Sequence record: MG748548
Direction: 5' to 3' (one strand)
Length of the DNA stretch: 64,000 nucleotides
DNA from: Escherichia phage EP335
The translations under genes and the position numbers were made by a program. The notes beneath the pieces are model-generated. The model saw only the letters and a program-made list of their open reading frames with translations. It did no database searches and had not been told where the DNA came from. Shown piece by piece: positions 23,112 through 36,751 of this stretch. Positions within the stretch are counted from its first letter, which is position 1, and the number at the start of each line of letters is the position of its first letter.

Positions 23112-23590
23112 CACCTATACCGATAAGGGTGCTATATAGTATAAGCAGTAGTGGTAGTAGATATTGACTACTAGTAATGTATATATTGTATAGATGATAA
23201 TTCTATTGCAGGCTTGTATATTGGGCAATTCTCAGAATCCCTTGCAAGTACCGAAGGGCAGGAGACACCTGCGAGATAAAAATAGAGAATTAAGGAATCC
23301 TTGATTTAGGTTGTAGGGACTCCTAGGGACTTTGATTCTCTATTTAAAAGAAATATTAATTACTTACTACCTAAATAGTTAACTAACTTACTTAAAACCT
23401 TTTCAATAAGAATTGCTAAAAGGATAATTCCTAAGAAAGCTAATAAGAGAAAGGCATAAGTTACCATTCCATCATTCCTTTTAATCTAGATTCTTCTACT
23501 ATTCGCTGATAGAGTAAGTTAGACTCAGCTTGATCTTTTAACATTTTACTGTATTGATCTCTGAGACTATCTTTATAAACAACAGGTGGT

Positions 23591-30978: not shown

Positions 30979-31635
30979 TTAACTCTCCAGAGTTTTCCTT
31001 AGAGCTGACCAAGAAATTGGGTAGAGTTTAGCCATCTCTTCATCTAATGACTGAGCAAACAGTCGAACTTCATACTGAGCATGGGATGATAGTCGTTGAC
31101 GACACAATTCAAACCAGCCATACAAACTACCAGTCCATACCCACTCAGTAATCATCCCCTGAGGAAGAACAAAGCGAGCTTGCTCTGGTGCAACAAATTC
31201 AATTAATTTGTCATAGGCTGCCAGTGAAGCCTCATACGCATTATTGATTAGCATTAATGCTTCGGCTCGTTCTCCGTTGACAAGCTGTGTCCCTGAACCT
31301 GCATGGAGGTCCGAAGGTCTCGCAAAAATCTCTTTAGGGATGAAGACTTCAACTGCTCCATCTTTATACCGCCGGGACATTTCGTTCCACGAGAATCCAA
31401 CCTGATGTTTTTGTAGTTGACGAGCTATTGCAATTGGAGCTTTACATCGAAAAGATACTTGAGGGTGTCTGAACGGAGTACAGTGTTTCTCTCTGGCAAG
31501 AAAGTTGATTAATCGAGTATCACGATCATTCAAATCACCCTCTCGCACAACACCGAAAGAAACTCTTGCAGCATTAACAACTGTTTTATCACTACCCATA
31601 GCTTCAATCAATGTTGCCTTCAATTGTTCATTCAT
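30979..31635 (-). CDS. thyX: ThyX-like protein (flavin-dependent thymidylate synthase family; RHR motif replaced by KHQ)
   Basis: FRHPQVSFRC and QLQKHQVGFSWNEMSRRY align with ThyX FEHVSF and QLVRHRxxSxxxxSxRY blocks. Confidence 0.65.
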   Translation of the reverse strand: MNEQLKATLIEAMGSDKTVVNAARVSFGVVREGDLNDRDTRLINFLAREKHCTPFRHPQVSFRCKAPIAIARQLQKHQVGFSWNEMSRRYKDGAVEVFIPKEIFARPSDLHAGSGTQLVNGERAEALMLINNAYEASLAAYDKLIEFVAPEQARFVLPQGMITEWVWTGSLYGWFELCRQRLSSHAQYEVRLFAQSLDEEMAKLYPISWSALRKTLES

Positions 31636-32110
31636 ACTTCAACTTCTCCTTGTTATAAGCAATCTCTGCTTCCTCTGGAGTGTGGAAAGTTCCCAAATGT
31701 TTAGTCTTTCCGCCAACTCCGATGATAGCTCTGAATTTTGTACCACTCGCCGTCTCTCTGATATAGACACCCATTGGGAGCTTTCCAGCTTTTCCGGCTC
31801 TGTTATATTGTTTCCTGTTATGACAGTTTGTAGATGGGTCAACATCTCTTAGGTTTTTAAGAGAGTCATCCAGTTTAATCTGGTTGATATGATCAATCTC
31901 AAACTCAGGCATCTTTCCATAAGAGAAAAACCAAGCTAAACGACAAGCTCTGTAAGATTTTCCTTCGTAATAAATATACCTGTAACCTAGTGTAGAGATA
32001 CACCCAGCAATATTCCCAGCCACCCGTCTACCTTTGGTATTCTTCCACCGAAAGATTCCAGTTTCAGGGTCATAAGACAGGTCTTCTTTTATCTTGTCAG
32101 TTAATATCAA
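31628..32110 (-). CDS. HNH homing endonuclease with AP2-type DNA-binding domain
   Basis: HNH core EIDHINQIKLDDSLKNLR plus AP2-like GVYIRETASGTKFRAIIGVGGKTKHLGTFHTPEEAEIAYN. Confidence 0.75.
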   Translation of the reverse strand: MILTDKIKEDLSYDPETGIFRWKNTKGRRVAGNIAGCISTLGYRYIYYEGKSYRACRLAWFFSYGKMPEFEIDHINQIKLDDSLKNLRDVDPSTNCHNRKQYNRAGKAGKLPMGVYIRETASGTKFRAIIGVGGKTKHLGTFHTPEEAEIAYNKEKLKYE

Positions 32111-32372
32111 AAGCTGTTACCAAGAAAGATTTCAGGTTTGCTTCAGTCTGCATACCAGATAAGCTATAATGTGCACCGCTGTTACGGTTAGGTACGATGA
32201 AAGCAGGAATACTTCGTACACCGTATTCGATAGCTCGATCACGACCATTGCCTTCGAGGATGTTAACCTCTTCAACTTCTAGGTTAAGCTCTTCAGCTAA
32301 TTTGTTGAGGGTAGGGGCCATTGCTTTGCAAGGAGCACACTGATTACTATAAAACTTAATAACTTTATTCAT
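32097..32372 (-). CDS. Thioredoxin
   Basis: Active-site CAPC in the expected position of an ~90-aa thioredoxin fold. Confidence 0.7.
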   Translation of the reverse strand: MNKVIKFYSNQCAPCKAMAPTLNKLAEELNLEVEEVNILEGNGRDRAIEYGVRSIPAFIVPNRNSGAHYSLSGMQTEANLKSFLVTAFDIN

Positions 32373-32552
32373 TCACTCTTCCCATTTACAAACAGCTCAA
32401 GATGTCGCTTGGTAGTGGGGACTACGATATAGTCCTTGTAGCCATGAGACTTAGCAAGCTCTTCTGCTATCTTTTTGGTAGCACCTAATGCTACTACACA
32501 TCGGCACACGATGATTGTGTGCGCTTTGTATTCATCTTTGTTCATAAAAACC

Positions 32553-32738: not shown

Positions 32739-32790
32739 TTCCTTATAAATAAGTTCGCCCTACCTCGGATTAGGAGACAGGGCGGAGGTT

Positions 32791-33378
32791 TTAGTATGAG
32801 ACGTCACTAGAGTGTGACATGTTACTTTTAACGAAGTAGCAATACTTGCCTAACCCTTCGTTGATTTCTTGGAGCATGCTCTGGTCAACTGGATACTCGC
32901 TCAAACATCCATCGAACTCATCCATTTTGTCAATCATGCACATTAAAGACATGCACATATCAGAGAGCATACCATCCATATCTAGGTCTGCATTTCCTTC
33001 AGAGAACCAAGAGTGTGATAGGTAGTTAGAAGCAGTTGCATCCACCTTAATACAGTGGAAACGCATACGTTCAGCTATCCGATCACCTGTCTCACGAGCA
33101 TAATCTTCAAGCTCATCAAACATTCCATGAACACCCTGAAATCCTGCACCAGATACGTTCCAGTGATAATTCTTAGCTTTGATATGCAAGAGTTCTAAAT
33201 TAGCTTGAATACCGCATAGAATGTGTTCTAGGCTGTTTCCACTAATCATCCCTTGCATACGCTCTAAACGGGAGATAGAAGAGTCTGTTTCACGTAATAC
33301 ATCACGGAAAGAAGTCTCTTTTGTTAGAGTTGGTAGGTCGAAAACATTGTGATTAGGCATTAGGATTCTCTCCATCAA
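32791..33378 (-). CDS. Dps/ferritin-like protein
   Basis: NYHWNVSGAGFQGVHGMFDELEDYARETGDRIAERM matches the Dps ferroxidase-centre region (HWN..G..F...H..F.E...........AER). Confidence 0.6.
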   Translation of the reverse strand: MMERILMPNHNVFDLPTLTKETSFRDVLRETDSSISRLERMQGMISGNSLEHILCGIQANLELLHIKAKNYHWNVSGAGFQGVHGMFDELEDYARETGDRIAERMRFHCIKVDATASNYLSHSWFSEGNADLDMDGMLSDMCMSLMCMIDKMDEFDGCLSEYPVDQSMLQEINEGLGKYCYFVKSNMSHSSDVSY

Positions 33379-33682
33379 GTTCTACTGAGTTCGCAACATT
33401 GCGTGTAATGTTATCCATTACCTGTTGGGTGATAACGATGCAGTTCTGTGGGTCAACCGACTTAGAACGTCCCATCTCAGGGTCATACACTTTAACGCGC
33501 TTTGCTGTAGAACCAGTTACCTGTAACACCTTGAGAAGATAACCCTGATTCCCGATAGACCATGCAACAACATCACGATTCTTGATGAATCGACCAAGCA
33601 TATCACGATGATAGAACTGCTGCATAACCTTTGATTTATTAATCTCTTCGGCTGGCGGAGCCACTTTACTCAAATCTAACAT
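33353..33682 (-). CDS. Hypothetical protein
   Basis: 109-aa ORF; AAATGTATATA motif 40 nt upstream. Confidence 0.45.
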   Translation of the reverse strand: MLDLSKVAPPAEEINKSKVMQQFYHRDMLGRFIKNRDVVAWSIGNQGYLLKVLQVTGSTAKRVKVYDPEMGRSKSVDPQNCIVITQQVMDNITRNVANSVELDGENPNA

Positions 33683-33754
33683 TTCACTCTCTCCTGTTCA
33701 ATACAATATTCTTATACTGTATATACATTTGAGAGTGATCATATCTACTACCAA

Positions 33755-33961
33755 CTAGTAGAAAACTGCTTTGGATATAAAAGAGCCAGTATTAGGGTCC
33801 TCATGCCATCGATGCATAGTGACTTTTGAGATAACCTTGCAAGCTTTCAAGTTTTTCTTGGTGAGACGAGCTTCTTCTCTGGTGTTGAATAACTTGATGG
33901 TATCTTTACCCACACGCTCTTCTACTCTCCACACTATTCGTATAGCCCACATCTTTTTCAT
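33755..33961 (-). CDS. Small protein, member 1 of a tandem paralog triplet
   Basis: MKKMWAIRIVWRVEE..., similar in length and pattern to the next two genes. Confidence 0.45.
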   Translation of the reverse strand: MKKMWAIRIVWRVEERVGKDTIKLFNTREEARLTKKNLKACKVISKVTMHRWHEDPNTGSFISKAVFY

Positions 33962-34176
33962 TAGTAATGTACCTTTCCGCTGATATAAATACGGCCTGAG
34001 GTATACTCATAGCCCTTGAGGATTTTGACAGAGGAAACACTATTCATCCCACTGAGAGATTTCTTAAGATTACGTGAACCCTCTCGTGTTTTCTGATAGG
34101 TCATGGTTGTATTACCATTATCCCACTCTATCTTAACTATCCAAATTCTTTTCATAAGACCTGCTCTCTTTACCAT
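33961..34176 (-). CDS. Small protein, member 2 of the tandem paralog triplet
   Basis: MVKRAGLMKRIWIVKIEWDNG...; stop/start coupled to neighbours. Confidence 0.45.
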   Translation of the reverse strand: MVKRAGLMKRIWIVKIEWDNGNTTMTYQKTREGSRNLKKSLSGMNSVSSVKILKGYEYTSGRIYISGKVHY

Positions 34177-34373
34177 TAGTAGTACACCTTGCTATTGGCG
34201 AAAAAAGCACCTTCGCTATTCACAATAGCTTTTCCTAATGTAACCTTGTTAAGTCTAAAAGTAGACTTGTATTGATTTTTGACCCTACGTGCGTGATCTC
34301 GAGTCTTAACAAAATCTACAGCTACCAAGTCTCCAGTCATGTTATCATGTACACGAACAATCCACTTTTTCAT
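34176..34373 (-). CDS. Small protein, member 3 of the tandem paralog triplet
   Basis: MKKWIVRVHDNMTGDLVAVDF...; ends in YY like member 1. Confidence 0.45.
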   Translation of the reverse strand: MKKWIVRVHDNMTGDLVAVDFVKTRDHARRVKNQYKSTFRLNKVTLGKAIVNSEGAFFANSKVYY

Positions 34374-36202: not shown

Positions 36203-36751
36203 TTACATTTTCCAATATAAAGATGGGGGGTCATTTGGGTCAAAGTTTGCAATATGACAAAGATATTTATAAACCTTAACCGTTAAGTTTACGTCCTGTT
36301 CACAATAAGTAAACATGTCCTCTGTAAAGGCATCCCATGCTTCTTCCTGTTCACCGTAATCGCCCTTAAGCTCTTCTAAGAACTCACCCCATTGCTTTAA
36401 GCCATGACCTCTTGGGCCATGTCTAGGGTCGCCTTTCGGATACTCAGGACTGTCACCAATACGGTCAGGTTTAAGATACCGACTCAGACATAAAGTGTCT
36501 AGGACGTTGAATTTGTATTTGATTAATTTCGGATATACTTTCTTCAGAGCTGGAAGGTCGAAGTCAATAATATTATGACCTACAACAATATCAGCCTCTG
36601 TAAGTTTCTTGATACCCTCTTCAATCTGGTGAGGACGAAATCCCCACCGTTCACCAGTTGCTATATCGAAGATAAAGATACACCATACGTTTGTGATATT
36701 GTCGTACAGTGCATCACTCTCAATATCAAATGCGTAGACTTTCTTTACCAC
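36203..36751 (-). CDS. DNA polymerase family A, 3'-5' exonuclease domain (T7 gp5 N-terminal-like), separate gene
   Basis: Exo I AFDIESD, Exo [13 protein letters not shown], Exo [12 protein letters not shown]; [11 protein letters not shown] and [19 protein letters not shown] resemble T7 gp5 N-terminal blocks; stop after ~182 aa. Confidence 0.85.

What the first reader, a model, noticed from the sequence alone, without database searches (positions are those of the whole stretch)
32791..33378. Dps/ferritin-like protein encoded by a phage
The HWN-x-x-G...H...E...AER ferroxidase-centre pattern of Dps is present. Dps is a bacterial nucleoid-protection and iron-sequestration protein and is uncommon in phage genomes. 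It may protect replicating phage DNA from oxidative damage, supply or sequester iron for the ThyX-like protein, or compact DNA.
Basis: partly seen in the sequence, partly recalled or inferred. Interest (0 to 1): 0.45.

Follow-up and report, generated by a model that had tools for sequence, protein, structure and literature searches.

The report
Known Dps mini-ferritin gene of kuraviruses
The flagged gene really does encode a Dps-type iron-detoxifying mini-ferritin with all its catalytic residues, but it is the already annotated and never tested gp67 core gene of phiEco32-like coliphages, so the call is correct and ordinary.

Summary
The minus-strand ORF 32791-33378 (probable start ATG 33360, 189 aa) is a Dps-family protein. 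Supporting results: Pfam Ferritin 4.4e-8, PHROG 3636 3e-53, a family profile against PDB with ~55 Dps top hits (best 1.2e-19), and an AlphaFold core superposing on solved Dps at 1.3-1.8 A. The ferroxidase residues H66/W67/H78/D82/D93/E97 match E. coli Dps H51/W52/H63/D67/D78/E82 without gaps and are invariant in all phage homologues.

It is not new. The window is a phiEco32-like Kuravirus (98.5% to Bas89). The orthologue phiEco32 gp67 is annotated "member of the Dps family", and papers from 2014 and 2021 note it as conserved in prolate (C3) podophages.

New details:
- The kuravirus form is strongly acidic. In place of the basic DNA-binding tail it has a ~43-aa N-terminal extension with a conserved MHNNxFDLP peptide.
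- It is translationally coupled to a conserved small partner (gp68-like).
- It lies behind a gp36-type middle promoter motif, inferred to be phiEco32 P68.
- In relatives it sits next to thioredoxin and anaerobic ribonucleotide reductase genes.

The most likely role is scavenging Fe2+ and H2O2 during replication while host sigma70/sigmaS responses are shut off. Supplying iron to ThyX is rejected. No function has been tested.

The parts
32791..33378 (-). Dps-like CDS. This is the maximal ORF (195 aa from TTG 33378). The probable start is ATG 33360, giving 189 aa, 21.5 kDa, pI 4.75. It is the orthologue of phiEco32 gp67, SU10 CDS67 and Bas89_0061.
33331..33360 (-). Conserved N-terminal decapeptide MPNHNVFDLP (family consensus MHNNxFDLP). 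It is specific to the kuravirus-type long-tailed Dps and is as conserved as the core (0.77 vs 0.70-0.88).
33232..33330 (-). Variable linker (aa 11-24, conservation 0.35) followed by a conserved S-x-x-R-L-E/D-x-M segment that is predicted, at low confidence, to be a helix (aa 28-40). The whole N-terminal extension (aa 1-43) has net charge -1.
32824..33231 (-). Dps four-helix-bundle core, aa 44-179. Helices: A 44-68, B 74-101, short BC helix 110-115, C 128-153, D 157-179. pLDDT is mostly above 90.
33067..33165 (-). Ferroxidase-centre motif H66-W67-x10-H78-x3-D82-x10-D93-x3-E97-R98. It corresponds to E. coli Dps H51/W52/H63/D67/D78/E82 and Listeria Dps H31/W32/H43/D47/D58/E62 in gapless register.
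32791..32823 (-). C-terminal 10-aa tail (NMSHSSDVSY) and the stop codon. The terminal Tyr is invariant in long-tailed members, and the tail has no basic residues.
33368..33373 (-). GGAGAG Shine-Dalgarno 7 nt upstream of ATG 33360. It lies inside the 3' end of the upstream gene, which indicates translational coupling.
33353..33682 (-). gp68-like small protein (109 aa, PHROG 10984, no Pfam hit). Its stop overlaps the Dps start. Homologues lie upstream of Dps in all 15 loci of this clade that were fetched. The model suggests a five-stranded SH3/Tudor/KOW-like barrel with an acidic C-terminal tail, at weak confidence.
33721..33737 (-). Promoter-like element CACTCTCAAATGTATAT containing the gp36-sigma consensus AATGTA, 47 nt upstream of the gp68-like start. 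It is conserved in Bas89 and phiEco32 and is inferred to be the phiEco32 'middle promoter P68'.
32746..32784 (-). Terminator-like hairpin (11 pairs, 7 G-C) plus a T-rich tail, beginning 7 nt after the Dps stop. It is conserved in Bas89 and phiEco32.
32097..32372 (-). Thioredoxin (CxxC). It is a conserved neighbour of the gp68-like/Dps pair in 13 of the 15 clade loci fetched (not detected at the Lahexavirus loci or in L014).

Best explanation
The gene encodes a Dps-family mini-ferritin, the orthologue of phiEco32 gp67.

Shown here:
- Full-length Dps sequence and fold.
- An intact, invariant set of ferroxidase ligands (His66, His78, Asp82, Asp93, Glu97), which in solved Dps proteins lie at the interface between two subunits.
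- Translational coupling to a conserved small partner gene.
- A position behind a gp36-type promoter element and in front of a hairpin, inside the nucleotide-metabolism and replication gene block.

Inferred from established Dps biochemistry: twelve subunits assemble into a hollow shell; Fe2+ enters, is oxidised at the twelve two-fold-interface centres (preferentially by H2O2), and is stored as a ferric mineral. This removes both Fenton reagents.

Inferred for the infection: phiEco32 gp79 shuts off sigma70 and sigmaS holoenzymes, the two that transcribe host dps, while it activates gp36-dependent middle promoters. The phage therefore supplies its own Dps (and thioredoxin) to limit oxidative damage to replicating phage DNA and to nucleotide-metabolism enzymes at a time when the host can no longer respond.

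The kuravirus form is unlikely to bind DNA through the canonical basic tail. Its N-terminal extension more probably docks it to a partner.

My probabilities: Dps family with a functional-looking ferroxidase site, about 0.95; anti-oxidative iron sequestration as the main role in infection, about 0.55.
For: Family and fold:
- significant hits that are all Dps.
- model with core pLDDT above 90 and the Dps-specific BC helix.
- top 50 Foldseek PDB hits are all Dps, rmsd 1.3-1.8 A over 134-144 residues.

Ligands:
- invariant in 29 phage homologues down to 36% identity.
- the equivalent columns are H 139/139, H 139/139, D 139/139 and E 138/139 in representative relatives, and map to E. coli H51/H63/D78/E82.

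Expression:
- 6 peptides and 35.8% coverage in SU10 lysate proteomics.
- an AATGTA element with extended similarity to other intergenic copies lies upstream of the gene pair.
- middle and late genes use RNAP-gp36 with an AATGTA element at -11.5. gp79 inhibits sigma70 and sigmaS holoenzymes and activates middle promoter P68.

Context:
- the order dCTP deaminase, thioredoxin, gp68-like, Dps, (ATP-cone/NrdD), ThyX and DNA polymerase is conserved across Kuravirus, Grimontviridae and Lahexavirus.

Precedent:
- the same anti-oxidative role was proposed for DPS in gut phages.
- host dps, catalase and peroxiredoxin are among the most induced host genes after lytic infection of a Yersinia host.
Against: - No experiment on any phage Dps was found in the searched literature.
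- Oligomeric state, iron binding and oxidant preference cannot be tested with these tools.
- The residue equivalent to the conserved pore Asp (E. coli D146, Listeria D130) is Ser161 here, a minority state (6 of 139 relatives; Asp 69, Asn 28). Iron entry may therefore differ.
- Assigning the motif at 33724-33729 to P68 rests on the promoter's name and on sequence. The primary papers were not available, and the SU10 paper instead predicts a sigma70 promoter upstream of CDS68.
- The conserved N-terminal peptide and the conserved partner gene are not explained by a simple iron-detoxification role.
Confidence: 0.6

Rival explanations
1. DNA-binding and compaction protein, as most records annotate it. 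The cage coats or condenses phage or host DNA, possibly using the gp68-like barrel protein as the DNA-contacting adaptor.
For: - Annotated 'DNA binding protein' in phiEco32, Bas89 and PHROG 3636.
- The short-tailed relatives in Grimontviridae and Lahexavirus carry basic N-terminal tails of net +2 to +3, like E. coli Dps at +3.
- The partner gp68-like model gives weak similarity to Tudor, PWWP and KOW barrels, some of which bind nucleic acids.
Against: - The kuravirus protein has net charge -15 per subunit and pI 4.75. Its 43-aa N-terminal extension is net -1 with a single Lys, and its C-terminal tail has no basic residue.
- By established knowledge, Dps proteins that lack a mobile basic tail (Listeria Dps, B. 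anthracis Dlp-1 and Dlp-2, the best profile hit) do not bind DNA.
- The gp68-like model has low confidence (pLDDT 64) and no fold hit at or below 1e-3.
Confidence: 0.12
2. Iron and oxygen management for nucleotide-synthesis enzymes, not for DNA. The cage buffers iron for, or removes O2 and H2O2 from around, oxygen-sensitive iron-dependent enzymes such as anaerobic ribonucleotide reductase NrdD and its 4Fe-4S activase NrdG.
For: - In Cronobacter GAP52, metagenomic locus L014, Aeromonas LAh_8 and Privateer/SE131, the gene directly downstream of Dps is NrdD or a stand-alone ATP-cone protein, with NrdG nearby.
- Thioredoxin lies within 1.6 kb of Dps in 13 of the 15 clade loci.
- The whole block is nucleotide metabolism.
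Against: - The kuravirus window, Bas89 and phiEco32 have no NrdD, NrdG or ATP-cone gene in the fetched region around Dps, yet they keep Dps.
- The link is by gene order only.
Confidence: 0.12
3. Virion-associated cargo. Dps is packaged with the DNA in the very prolate head, or travels with particles, and acts on entry or inside the capsid.
For: - The Privateer Dps homologue was detected by LC-MS/MS in particles purified by CsCl step and equilibrium gradients.
- The SU10 homologue was detected with 6 peptides.
- BFVD holds phage proteins named 'Prohead protease' that contain a Dps-like domain.
Against: - The SU10 sample was PEG-precipitated only, and the authors themselves warn that middle-gene products may be present. 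DNA polymerase and thioredoxin were also detected.
- The SU10 cryo-EM study lists gp20-24 as head-internal ejection proteins and never mentions Dps in the text or the held supplements.
- My inference: an iron-loaded cage is dense and could co-band with phage in CsCl.
- The gene sits in the middle (replication) block and not in the structural block.
- The BFVD names could not be verified.
Confidence: 0.07
4. Antagonist of host Dps. A tail-less phage Dps interferes with host Dps-DNA co-crystals in stationary-phase cells so that the phage can replicate.
For: - gp79 also blocks sigmaS holoenzyme, and the authors suggest this supports development in stationary phase.
- The kuravirus form lacks the basic tail.
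Against: - There is weak direct similarity to E. coli Dps. Single-sequence phmmer E is about 0.09 and matches only aa 65-104. The profile E is 2.3e-9 versus 1e-19 for Gram-positive-type Dps. Mixed dodecamers are therefore unlikely.
- The intact, invariant ferroxidase site argues for a catalytic role and not a purely structural one.
Confidence: 0.03

Closest known systems
phiEco32 gp67 (YP_001671812), SU10 CDS67 and Bas89_0061: the Dps-family 'DNA binding protein' of Kuravirus
   Same: These are orthologues: 98.5% identity to Bas89 and about 80% to phiEco32 over the full length. They share the same neighbours, the same upstream partner gene, the same upstream AATGTA element and the same downstream hairpin.
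   Different: Nothing of substance differs. In the window an HNH endonuclease and an extra 58-aa ORF have been inserted further downstream in the block.
Gram-positive-type bacterial Dps of known structure: B. anthracis Dlp-2 (1jig), M. smegmatis Dps2 (2z90), S. aureus Dps (2d5k), B. subtilis MrgA (2chp)
   Same: They share the four-helix bundle with the BC helix (rmsd 1.3-1.8 A), the complete inter-subunit ferroxidase ligand set and the conserved Trp.
   Different: - Identity is only 21-28%.
- The phage protein has a 43-aa N-terminal extension with a conserved terminal peptide, a 10-aa C-terminal tail ending in an invariant Tyr, 6 Cys and 14 Met, and Ser in place of the common pore Asp.
- In a pattern-seeded scan of 185,579 species genomes, the best full-length bacterial match among the 80 loci kept was 34% identical. 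One 568-bp scaffold reached 43%.
E. coli Dps (host protein, 1dps)
   Same: It has the same fold and identical ligand positions H51/W52/H63/D67/D78/E82.
   Different: - It is a more distant relative than the Gram-positive-type Dps (profile E 2e-9 to 2e-8), so the gene is not a recent capture from the host.
- E. coli Dps has a Lys-rich N-terminal tail (net +3) that mediates DNA binding, whereas the kuravirus tail is net -1.
- By established knowledge, host dps is transcribed by sigma70/OxyR and sigmaS. The phage gene lies behind a gp36-type promoter.
Short-tailed Dps of Grimontviridae and Lahexavirus phages (Privateer QIN94861, SE131 gp090, GAP52_062, LAh_8 gp125)
   Same: They belong to the same phage clade (33-42% identity) and have the same ligands and the same gp68-like partner. 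Thioredoxin is also nearby except at the Lahexavirus loci.
   Different: - They have 9-18-aa basic N-terminal tails (net +2 to +3) in place of the long near-neutral extension.
- They are followed by an ATP-cone protein or NrdD, which kuraviruses lack.
DPS genes of other phage lineages (Gratiaviridae and other gut phages; Lactobacillus, Streptomyces and Clostridium phages)
   Same: These are phage-encoded Dps, interpreted in the literature as protection against oxidative damage during infection.
   Different: They are separate lineages. They lack the gp68-like, thioredoxin and ATP-cone neighbours in the viral contigs examined, and were probably acquired independently.

Membership tests
Dps (DNA-protection-during-starvation) mini-ferritins | Significant full-length sequence similarity to Dps and not to other ferritin-like families | tested here: met
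   Pfam PF00210 33.6 bits against a cutoff of 24.5. In the profile search against PDB, about 55 top hits are all Dps over profile positions ~39-177, best 1.2e-19.
Dps (DNA-protection-during-starvation) mini-ferritins | Four-helix bundle with a short extra helix in the long B-C loop, and no C-terminal E helix | tested here: met
   The AlphaFold model has helices 44-68, 74-101, 110-115 (BC), 128-153 and 157-179. The top 50 Foldseek PDB hits are all Dps, with TM (target-normalised) up to 0.91.
Dps (DNA-protection-during-starvation) mini-ferritins | Inter-subunit ferroxidase ligands: two His on helices A and B, plus Asp and Glu on helix B of the partner subunit, and the adjacent conserved Trp | tested here: met
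   H66, W67, H78, D82, D93 and E97 are in gapless register with E. coli H51/W52/H63/D67/D78/E82. They are invariant in 29 phage homologues and in 138-139 of 139 representative relatives for the four core ligands H66/H78/D93/E97 (W67 137/139; the D82 column is D or E in 112/139). That the site forms across a dimer interface is inferred from solved homologues and was not modelled.
Dps (DNA-protection-during-starvation) mini-ferritins | Assembly into a 12-subunit hollow shell with 23 symmetry | not testable with these tools
   Only single-chain prediction is available.
Dps (DNA-protection-during-starvation) mini-ferritins | Fe2+ oxidation (H2O2 preferred) and a ferric mineral core | not testable with these tools
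   This needs biochemistry. No published assay of a phage Dps was found.
Dps (DNA-protection-during-starvation) mini-ferritins | Acidic 'ferritin-like' three-fold pore for iron entry | tested here: inconclusive
   The position equivalent to Listeria D130 and E. coli D146 is Ser161. Among 139 relatives it is Asp in 69, Asn in 28 and Ser in 6. Other acidic residues (E155, D159) are nearby but are not conserved across the clade.
DNA-binding subset of Dps (E. coli Dps type) | Flexible Lys/Arg-rich N- or C-terminal tail | tested here: not met
   The kuravirus N-terminal extension is net -1 with 1 Lys. The C-terminal tail has no Lys or Arg. The subunit is net -15. The feature is met in the short-tailed Grimontviridae and Lahexavirus relatives (+2 to +3).
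NCBIfam equivalog NF006975 (enterobacterial Dps, PRK09448) | Score above the curated equivalog cutoff | tested here: not met
   34.5 bits against a cutoff of 114, with a partial match only. The protein is a family member and not an equivalog of host Dps.
Classical 24-mer ferritin or bacterioferritin | Intra-subunit di-iron centre (paired ExxH motifs) and best similarity to Ftn or Bfr | tested here: not met
   No ferritin or bacterioferritin appears among the leading sequence or fold hits. The only ExxH (E56-H59) is not conserved; most relatives have Tyr at position 59.
Integrase (as annotated for the orthologue in many GenBank records) | Tyrosine or serine recombinase domain | tested here: not met
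   The only Pfam hit is Ferritin. 'Integrase' labels appear under the match in many records, which is a propagated annotation error.

The most novel reading that the evidence does not exclude
The kuravirus Dps is a tethered nanocage and not a free-floating one. Its conserved N-terminal MHNNxFDLP peptide on a variable linker, together with the translationally coupled gp68-like barrel protein, would dock the iron-oxidising shell onto a specific target. The target could be the phage replisome or DNA, or the interior of the prolate capsid, by analogy with ferritin-like cargo carried into encapsulin shells by terminal peptides. This would fit the mass-spectrometric detection of the homologue in CsCl-purified Privateer particles. 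It would be a targeted DNA-protection or capsid-cargo system not described for any phage.
Probability: 0.1. Interest if true: 0.65.

Novelty: already known. Interest (0 to 1): 0.2.

Why it matters
As it stands, this confirms an existing annotation. phiEco32-like phages carry their own Dps, and they appear to express it from a phage-sigma promoter at the moment they silence the host's sigma70 and sigmaS stress responses.

The modest value added here:
- The widespread labels 'DNA binding protein' and especially 'integrase' are respectively doubtful and wrong for the kuravirus form.
- The gene forms a conserved, translationally coupled pair with an uncharacterised small protein, and is anciently linked to thioredoxin and anaerobic ribonucleotide reductase genes.
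- The kuravirus lineage replaced the basic tail with a conserved docking-like peptide.

No phage Dps appears to have been studied biochemically. phiEco32 and the BASEL phage Bas89 are tractable, so a knockout and a purified protein would quickly show whether phages need to manage iron and peroxide during replication.

Tried and rejected
- Iron supply to ThyX: rejected. The neighbour is a Thy1/ThyX flavoenzyme.
- Classical ferritin, bacterioferritin or an unrelated four-helix bundle: rejected by profile and fold hits.
- Integrase annotation: rejected.
- Cys/Met-rich helix C (DMCMSLMCM) as a soft-metal site: the Cys and Met are not conserved across the clade except M135 and L139, which are ordinary Dps core positions.
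- A shared terminal docking motif in other phage proteins: a regex scan of all window ORFs found only an internal FDLPAL in the 3'-5' exonuclease ExoII motif. The 27/38 nt identity is too short to interpret.
- Fold of the gp68-like partner: the model is weak (pLDDT 64), with only marginal Tudor, KOW and PWWP hits at E about 4e-3.
- Virion association in Kuravirus: the SU10 proteomics used unpurified PEG precipitate, and the SU10 cryo-EM paper and its held supplements do not mention the protein.
- BFVD 'Prohead protease' entries with a Dps-like domain: I tried to follow the lead through long multi-domain relatives P0075, P0127, P0141 and P0153. Pfam and PHROGs show only Dps domains, and the two contigs recovered give no structural-module context.
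- AATGTAT as a bare 7-mer is not enriched in the window (17 observed vs 11.5 expected). Only the extended intergenic copies look promoter-like.
- The sigma70 consensus scan found no minus-strand promoter upstream of the gene pair.
- The primary phiEco32 papers (Savalia 2008, Pavlova 2012) are not held, so the exact P68 sequence could not be checked.
- Prophage or bacterial copies of this clade: a pattern-seeded scan of 185,579 species genomes returned no close full-length relative among the 80 best loci kept; the best was 34% identical, in Actinomycetota.
Full report
**Observation**

The finding's coordinates match a minus-strand ORF, 32791..33378, of 195 aa starting at a TTG. The likely initiation codon is the ATG at 33360, giving MPNHNVFDLP... 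and 189 aa.
- A GGAGAG Shine-Dalgarno lies 7 nt upstream.
- The ATG overlaps the stop of the upstream gene (ATGCCTAA).
- Homologues, including phiEco32 gp67, start at the equivalent position.

In 189-aa numbering it is HWNVSG at 66-71, H78, D82, and D93-R-I-A-E97-R98.

**Is it Dps?**

Yes, by every test available.
- Pfam gives only PF00210 Ferritin, at 4.4e-8 and above the gathering score. That hit covers only aa 64-106.
- PHROGs gives phrog_3636 'DNA binding protein' at 3.3e-53 over the whole core.
- phmmer against PDB sequences gives 60 hits, almost all of them Dps. The best is M. smegmatis Dps2 at 1.5e-10, aligned over aa 53-186.
- A profile of 29 phage homologues against PDB gives about 55 Dps chains at the top, aligned from helix A to helix D. 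The best is B. anthracis Dlp-2 at 1.2e-19. E. coli Dps scores 2e-9 to 2e-8.
- NCBIfam equivalog models for enterobacterial, haloarchaeal and cyanobacterial Dps are hit only partially and far below their cutoffs. The protein is therefore a family member and not an equivalog of host Dps.
- An AlphaFold2 model built on the 29-sequence alignment has mean pLDDT 83, mostly above 90 in the core. It shows helices 44-68, 74-101, a short 110-115 helix in the B-C loop (a Dps hallmark), 128-153 and 157-179. Residues 1-40 have low confidence.
- All 50 top Foldseek hits in the PDB are Dps, with rmsd 1.3-1.8 A over 134-144 residues.

**Ferroxidase ligands**

They also fall on Listeria Dps H31, W32, H43, D47, D58 and E62.

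These residues are invariant in all 29 phage homologues, down to 36% identity. In an alignment with 139 representative relatives the columns are H 139/139, H 139/139, D 139/139 and E 138/139.

One departure was seen. The residue equivalent to the pore-lining Asp (Listeria D130, E. coli D146) is Ser161. Among relatives this position is Asp in 69, Asn in 28 and Ser in 6 of 139. This is unusual but not disqualifying.

**What the window is, and whether this is known**

The region is 91% identical at DNA level to Escherichia phage KarlSchell_Bas89 and about 80% identical to phiEco32 and about 90 other Escherichia and Shigella kuraviruses. The protein is 98.5% identical to Bas89_0061 and about 80% identical to phiEco32 gp67.

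RefSeq annotates phiEco32 gp67 as 'DNA binding protein; member of the Dps family'.
- The SU10 paper lists CDS67 (a DPS domain protein) among the few middle genes shared by all five C3-morphotype podophages then known, and detected it by proteomics.
- The Privateer paper notes a 'DNA-binding Dps family protein', says its function is unverified, and says homologues occur in Kuravirus.

Dps genes in other phages are also documented. They occur in Gratiaviridae and 36 other gut phage genomes and in Lactobacillus phages.

My own searches show about 130 phage records with this clade. About 130 more records carry other Dps lineages, mostly Streptomyces, Lactobacillus and Clostridium phages. That is roughly 0.5% of 50,697 records. 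BFVD likewise holds many viral Dps models.

So the gene is rare among phages overall but is a known core gene of this lineage. Many GenBank records label the orthologue 'integrase'. Nothing supports that label.

**Anatomy beyond the annotation**

1. *Charge.* The kuravirus protein is very acidic: net -15, pI 4.75, with 6 Cys and 14 Met. Its 43-residue N-terminal extension is net -1 with one Lys, and its C-terminal tail has no basic residue. E. coli Dps has a +3 Lys-rich tail. The short-tailed relatives in Privateer, SE131, GAP52 and LAh_8 have 9-18-residue tails of +2 to +3. The canonical DNA-binding device is therefore present in the sister lineages but was replaced in kuraviruses.

2. *N-terminal extension.* The first ten residues (consensus MHNNxFDLP) are as conserved as the catalytic core, 0.77 against 0.70-0.88. 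Residues 11-24 are variable (0.35). Next comes a conserved S-x-x-R-L-E/D-x-M segment. The very C-terminal Tyr is invariant in long-tailed members. A conserved peptide on a variable linker is the signature of a docking motif. No partner could be identified.

3. *Partner gene.* The upstream 109-aa ORF (33353-33682, PHROG 10984, no Pfam hit) overlaps the Dps start.
   - It has homologues at E 1e-14 to 1e-17 in Privateer, GAP52, LAh_8 and SE131.
   - In all 15 loci of this clade that I fetched it lies upstream of Dps on the same strand.
   - It is immediately adjacent in 12 loci and about 1.3 kb away in the three Moazamivirus-type loci.
   - It is absent from seven viral contigs that carry unrelated Dps lineages.
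   - Its model is weak (pLDDT 64). It shows a five-stranded barrel flanked by helices, with only marginal Tudor, KOW and PWWP similarity.

4. *Neighbourhood.* The order dCTP deaminase, thioredoxin, gp68-like, Dps, ThyX and DNA polymerase is conserved. In the non-kuravirus relatives Dps is followed directly by an ATP-cone protein or by NrdD, with NrdG nearby. Kuraviruses lack these.

5. *Expression signals.*
   - The 72-nt gap upstream of the gp68-like gene contains CACTCTCAAATGTATAT. It is conserved in Bas89 and phiEco32 and resembles other intergenic (CTCTCA)tAATGTAtA copies in the window.
   - According to the 2025 structural study, phiEco32 middle and late promoters carry AATGTA centred at -11.5 and are read by RNAP with the phage sigma gp36.
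   - In the same study gp79 inhibits sigma70 and sigmaS holoenzymes and activates the 'middle promoter P68' three-fold.
   - That P68 is this element is my inference from its name and the motif. The primary papers were not available, and the SU10 authors instead predicted a sigma70 promoter there.
   - A conserved 11-bp hairpin with a T-rich tail follows the Dps stop.

**Mechanism**

*Shown.* The protein has a Dps fold, a complete and invariant ligand set, translational coupling to a conserved partner, and a position in the replication and nucleotide-metabolism block behind a phage-type promoter motif. Expression as protein is shown by the SU10 peptides.

*Inferred from established Dps biochemistry.* The protein assembles as a dodecamer, oxidises Fe2+ with H2O2 at the two-fold interfaces, and stores a ferric core.

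*Inferred for the infection.* Host dps depends on sigma70/OxyR and sigmaS (established knowledge), and gp79 blocks both holoenzymes. The phage must therefore bring its own Dps if it needs one. A lytic infection of a Yersinia host strongly induces host dps, catalase and peroxiredoxin. This suggests that infection does create such a need. The same rationale has been proposed for gut-phage DPS.

I put the family assignment at about 0.95 and this physiological role at about 0.55.

**Rivals**

- DNA binding or compaction is disfavoured for the kuravirus form by charge, but remains possible through the partner protein.
- An iron and oxygen service to anaerobic ribonucleotide reductase fits the gene order in relatives but not the kuravirus gene content.
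- Virion cargo rests on one CsCl-purified proteome, from Privateer. The SU10 sample was not gradient-purified, and the SU10 cryo-EM work does not report the protein. An iron-loaded cage could simply co-band.
- Antagonism of host Dps is unlikely given the weak similarity to E. coli Dps and the conserved catalytic site.
- Iron supply to ThyX is rejected because ThyX is a flavoenzyme.

**Origin**

The clade is well separated from cellular Dps. Only 12 of 537 representative hits reach 1e-10. In a pattern-seeded scan of 185,579 species genomes, the closest full-length relatives among the 80 best loci kept were actinobacterial Dps at 26-34% identity. One 568-bp scaffold reached 43%. Identity levels follow phage taxonomy: Kuravirus 79-98%, Grimontviridae 37-42%, Lahexavirus 33-35%. 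This argues for an old acquisition in the ancestor of the prolate podophages and against a recent capture from the enterobacterial host.

**Verdict**

This is a correct call of an already annotated gene. Residual interest lies in three points. No phage Dps has been characterised. The kuravirus form has swapped the DNA-binding tail for a conserved peptide. It also comes as a conserved pair with an unknown small protein.

Noticed in passing
window 33755-33961, 33961-34176, 34176-34373 (-): Three tandem paralogous small ORFs (65-71 aa) all match PHROG 4939 of unknown function. They lie between dCTP deaminase and the gp68-like/Dps pair and correspond to phiEco32 gp69-71.
   Followed up: partly
window 31628-32110 (-): An HNH endonuclease ORF is inserted between ThyX and thioredoxin. 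It is absent at this site in Bas89 and phiEco32, while Bas89 has a different HNH gene next to dCTP deaminase. This looks like mobile homing endonucleases shuffling within the block.
   Followed up: partly
window 32369-32545 (-): An extra 58-aa ORF (PHROG 19504, unknown function) lies between the 61-aa membrane-like ORF and thioredoxin. It is not annotated at this place in Bas89 or phiEco32.
   Followed up: no
orthologues of window 32791-33378 in GenBank (e.g. YW01, IME267, EcoN5, DE5, 172-1): The Dps orthologue is labelled 'integrase' in many kuravirus records, although it has no recombinase domain. This is a propagating annotation error.
   Followed up: yes
window 33319-33357 (-) versus 36533-36577 (-) inside ORF 36203-36751: The Dps N-terminus PNHNVFDLPTLTKE resembles the ExoII-motif stretch [14 protein letters not shown] of the phage 3'-5' exonuclease subunit, with 27 of 38 nt identical. 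The match is too short to separate chance from a shared origin.
   Followed up: partly
window 13695 (+), 23110 (-), 23176 (+), 29448 (-), 33729 (-): Intergenic copies of an extended (CTCTCA)tAATGTAtA element lie 44-65 nt upstream of ORF starts where a downstream start was found (none for the copy at 23176). They fit the published gp36-sigma promoter consensus. The bare 7-mer is not enriched in the window.
   Followed up: partly
L003 5398-5694, L004 5408-5707, L005 5429-5701, L006 5457-7589, L014 4449-5306: In Grimontviridae and Lahexavirus relatives the gene directly after Dps is a stand-alone ~95-aa ATP-cone protein or an NrdD that begins with an ATP-cone. Kuraviruses lack both.
   Followed up: partly
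BFVD entries A0A6J7XDU5, A0A6J7WPK9, A0A6J7WIS1; proteins P0153 (L103 615-2948), P0127 (L104 8001-9005): Some uncultured-phage proteins of 330-780 aa contain one or two Dps domains fused to other regions, and three are named 'Prohead protease' in UniProt. Pfam and PHROGs found only the Dps domains in the relatives I could fetch, so the names remain unverified.
   Followed up: partly
L023 (Herbiconiux daphne scaffold643, 568 bp): A tiny scaffold in an actinobacterial assembly encodes a Dps 43% identical to the phage clade, much closer than any other bacterial hit. It is probably phage or contaminant sequence.
   Followed up: no
window 33738-33756 (-): An inverted repeat CTACTA-GTTG-GTAGTAG sits at the end of the preceding small ORF, just upstream of the AATGTA element. 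It is conserved in Bas89 and phiEco32 and could be a processing or regulatory hairpin.
   Followed up: no
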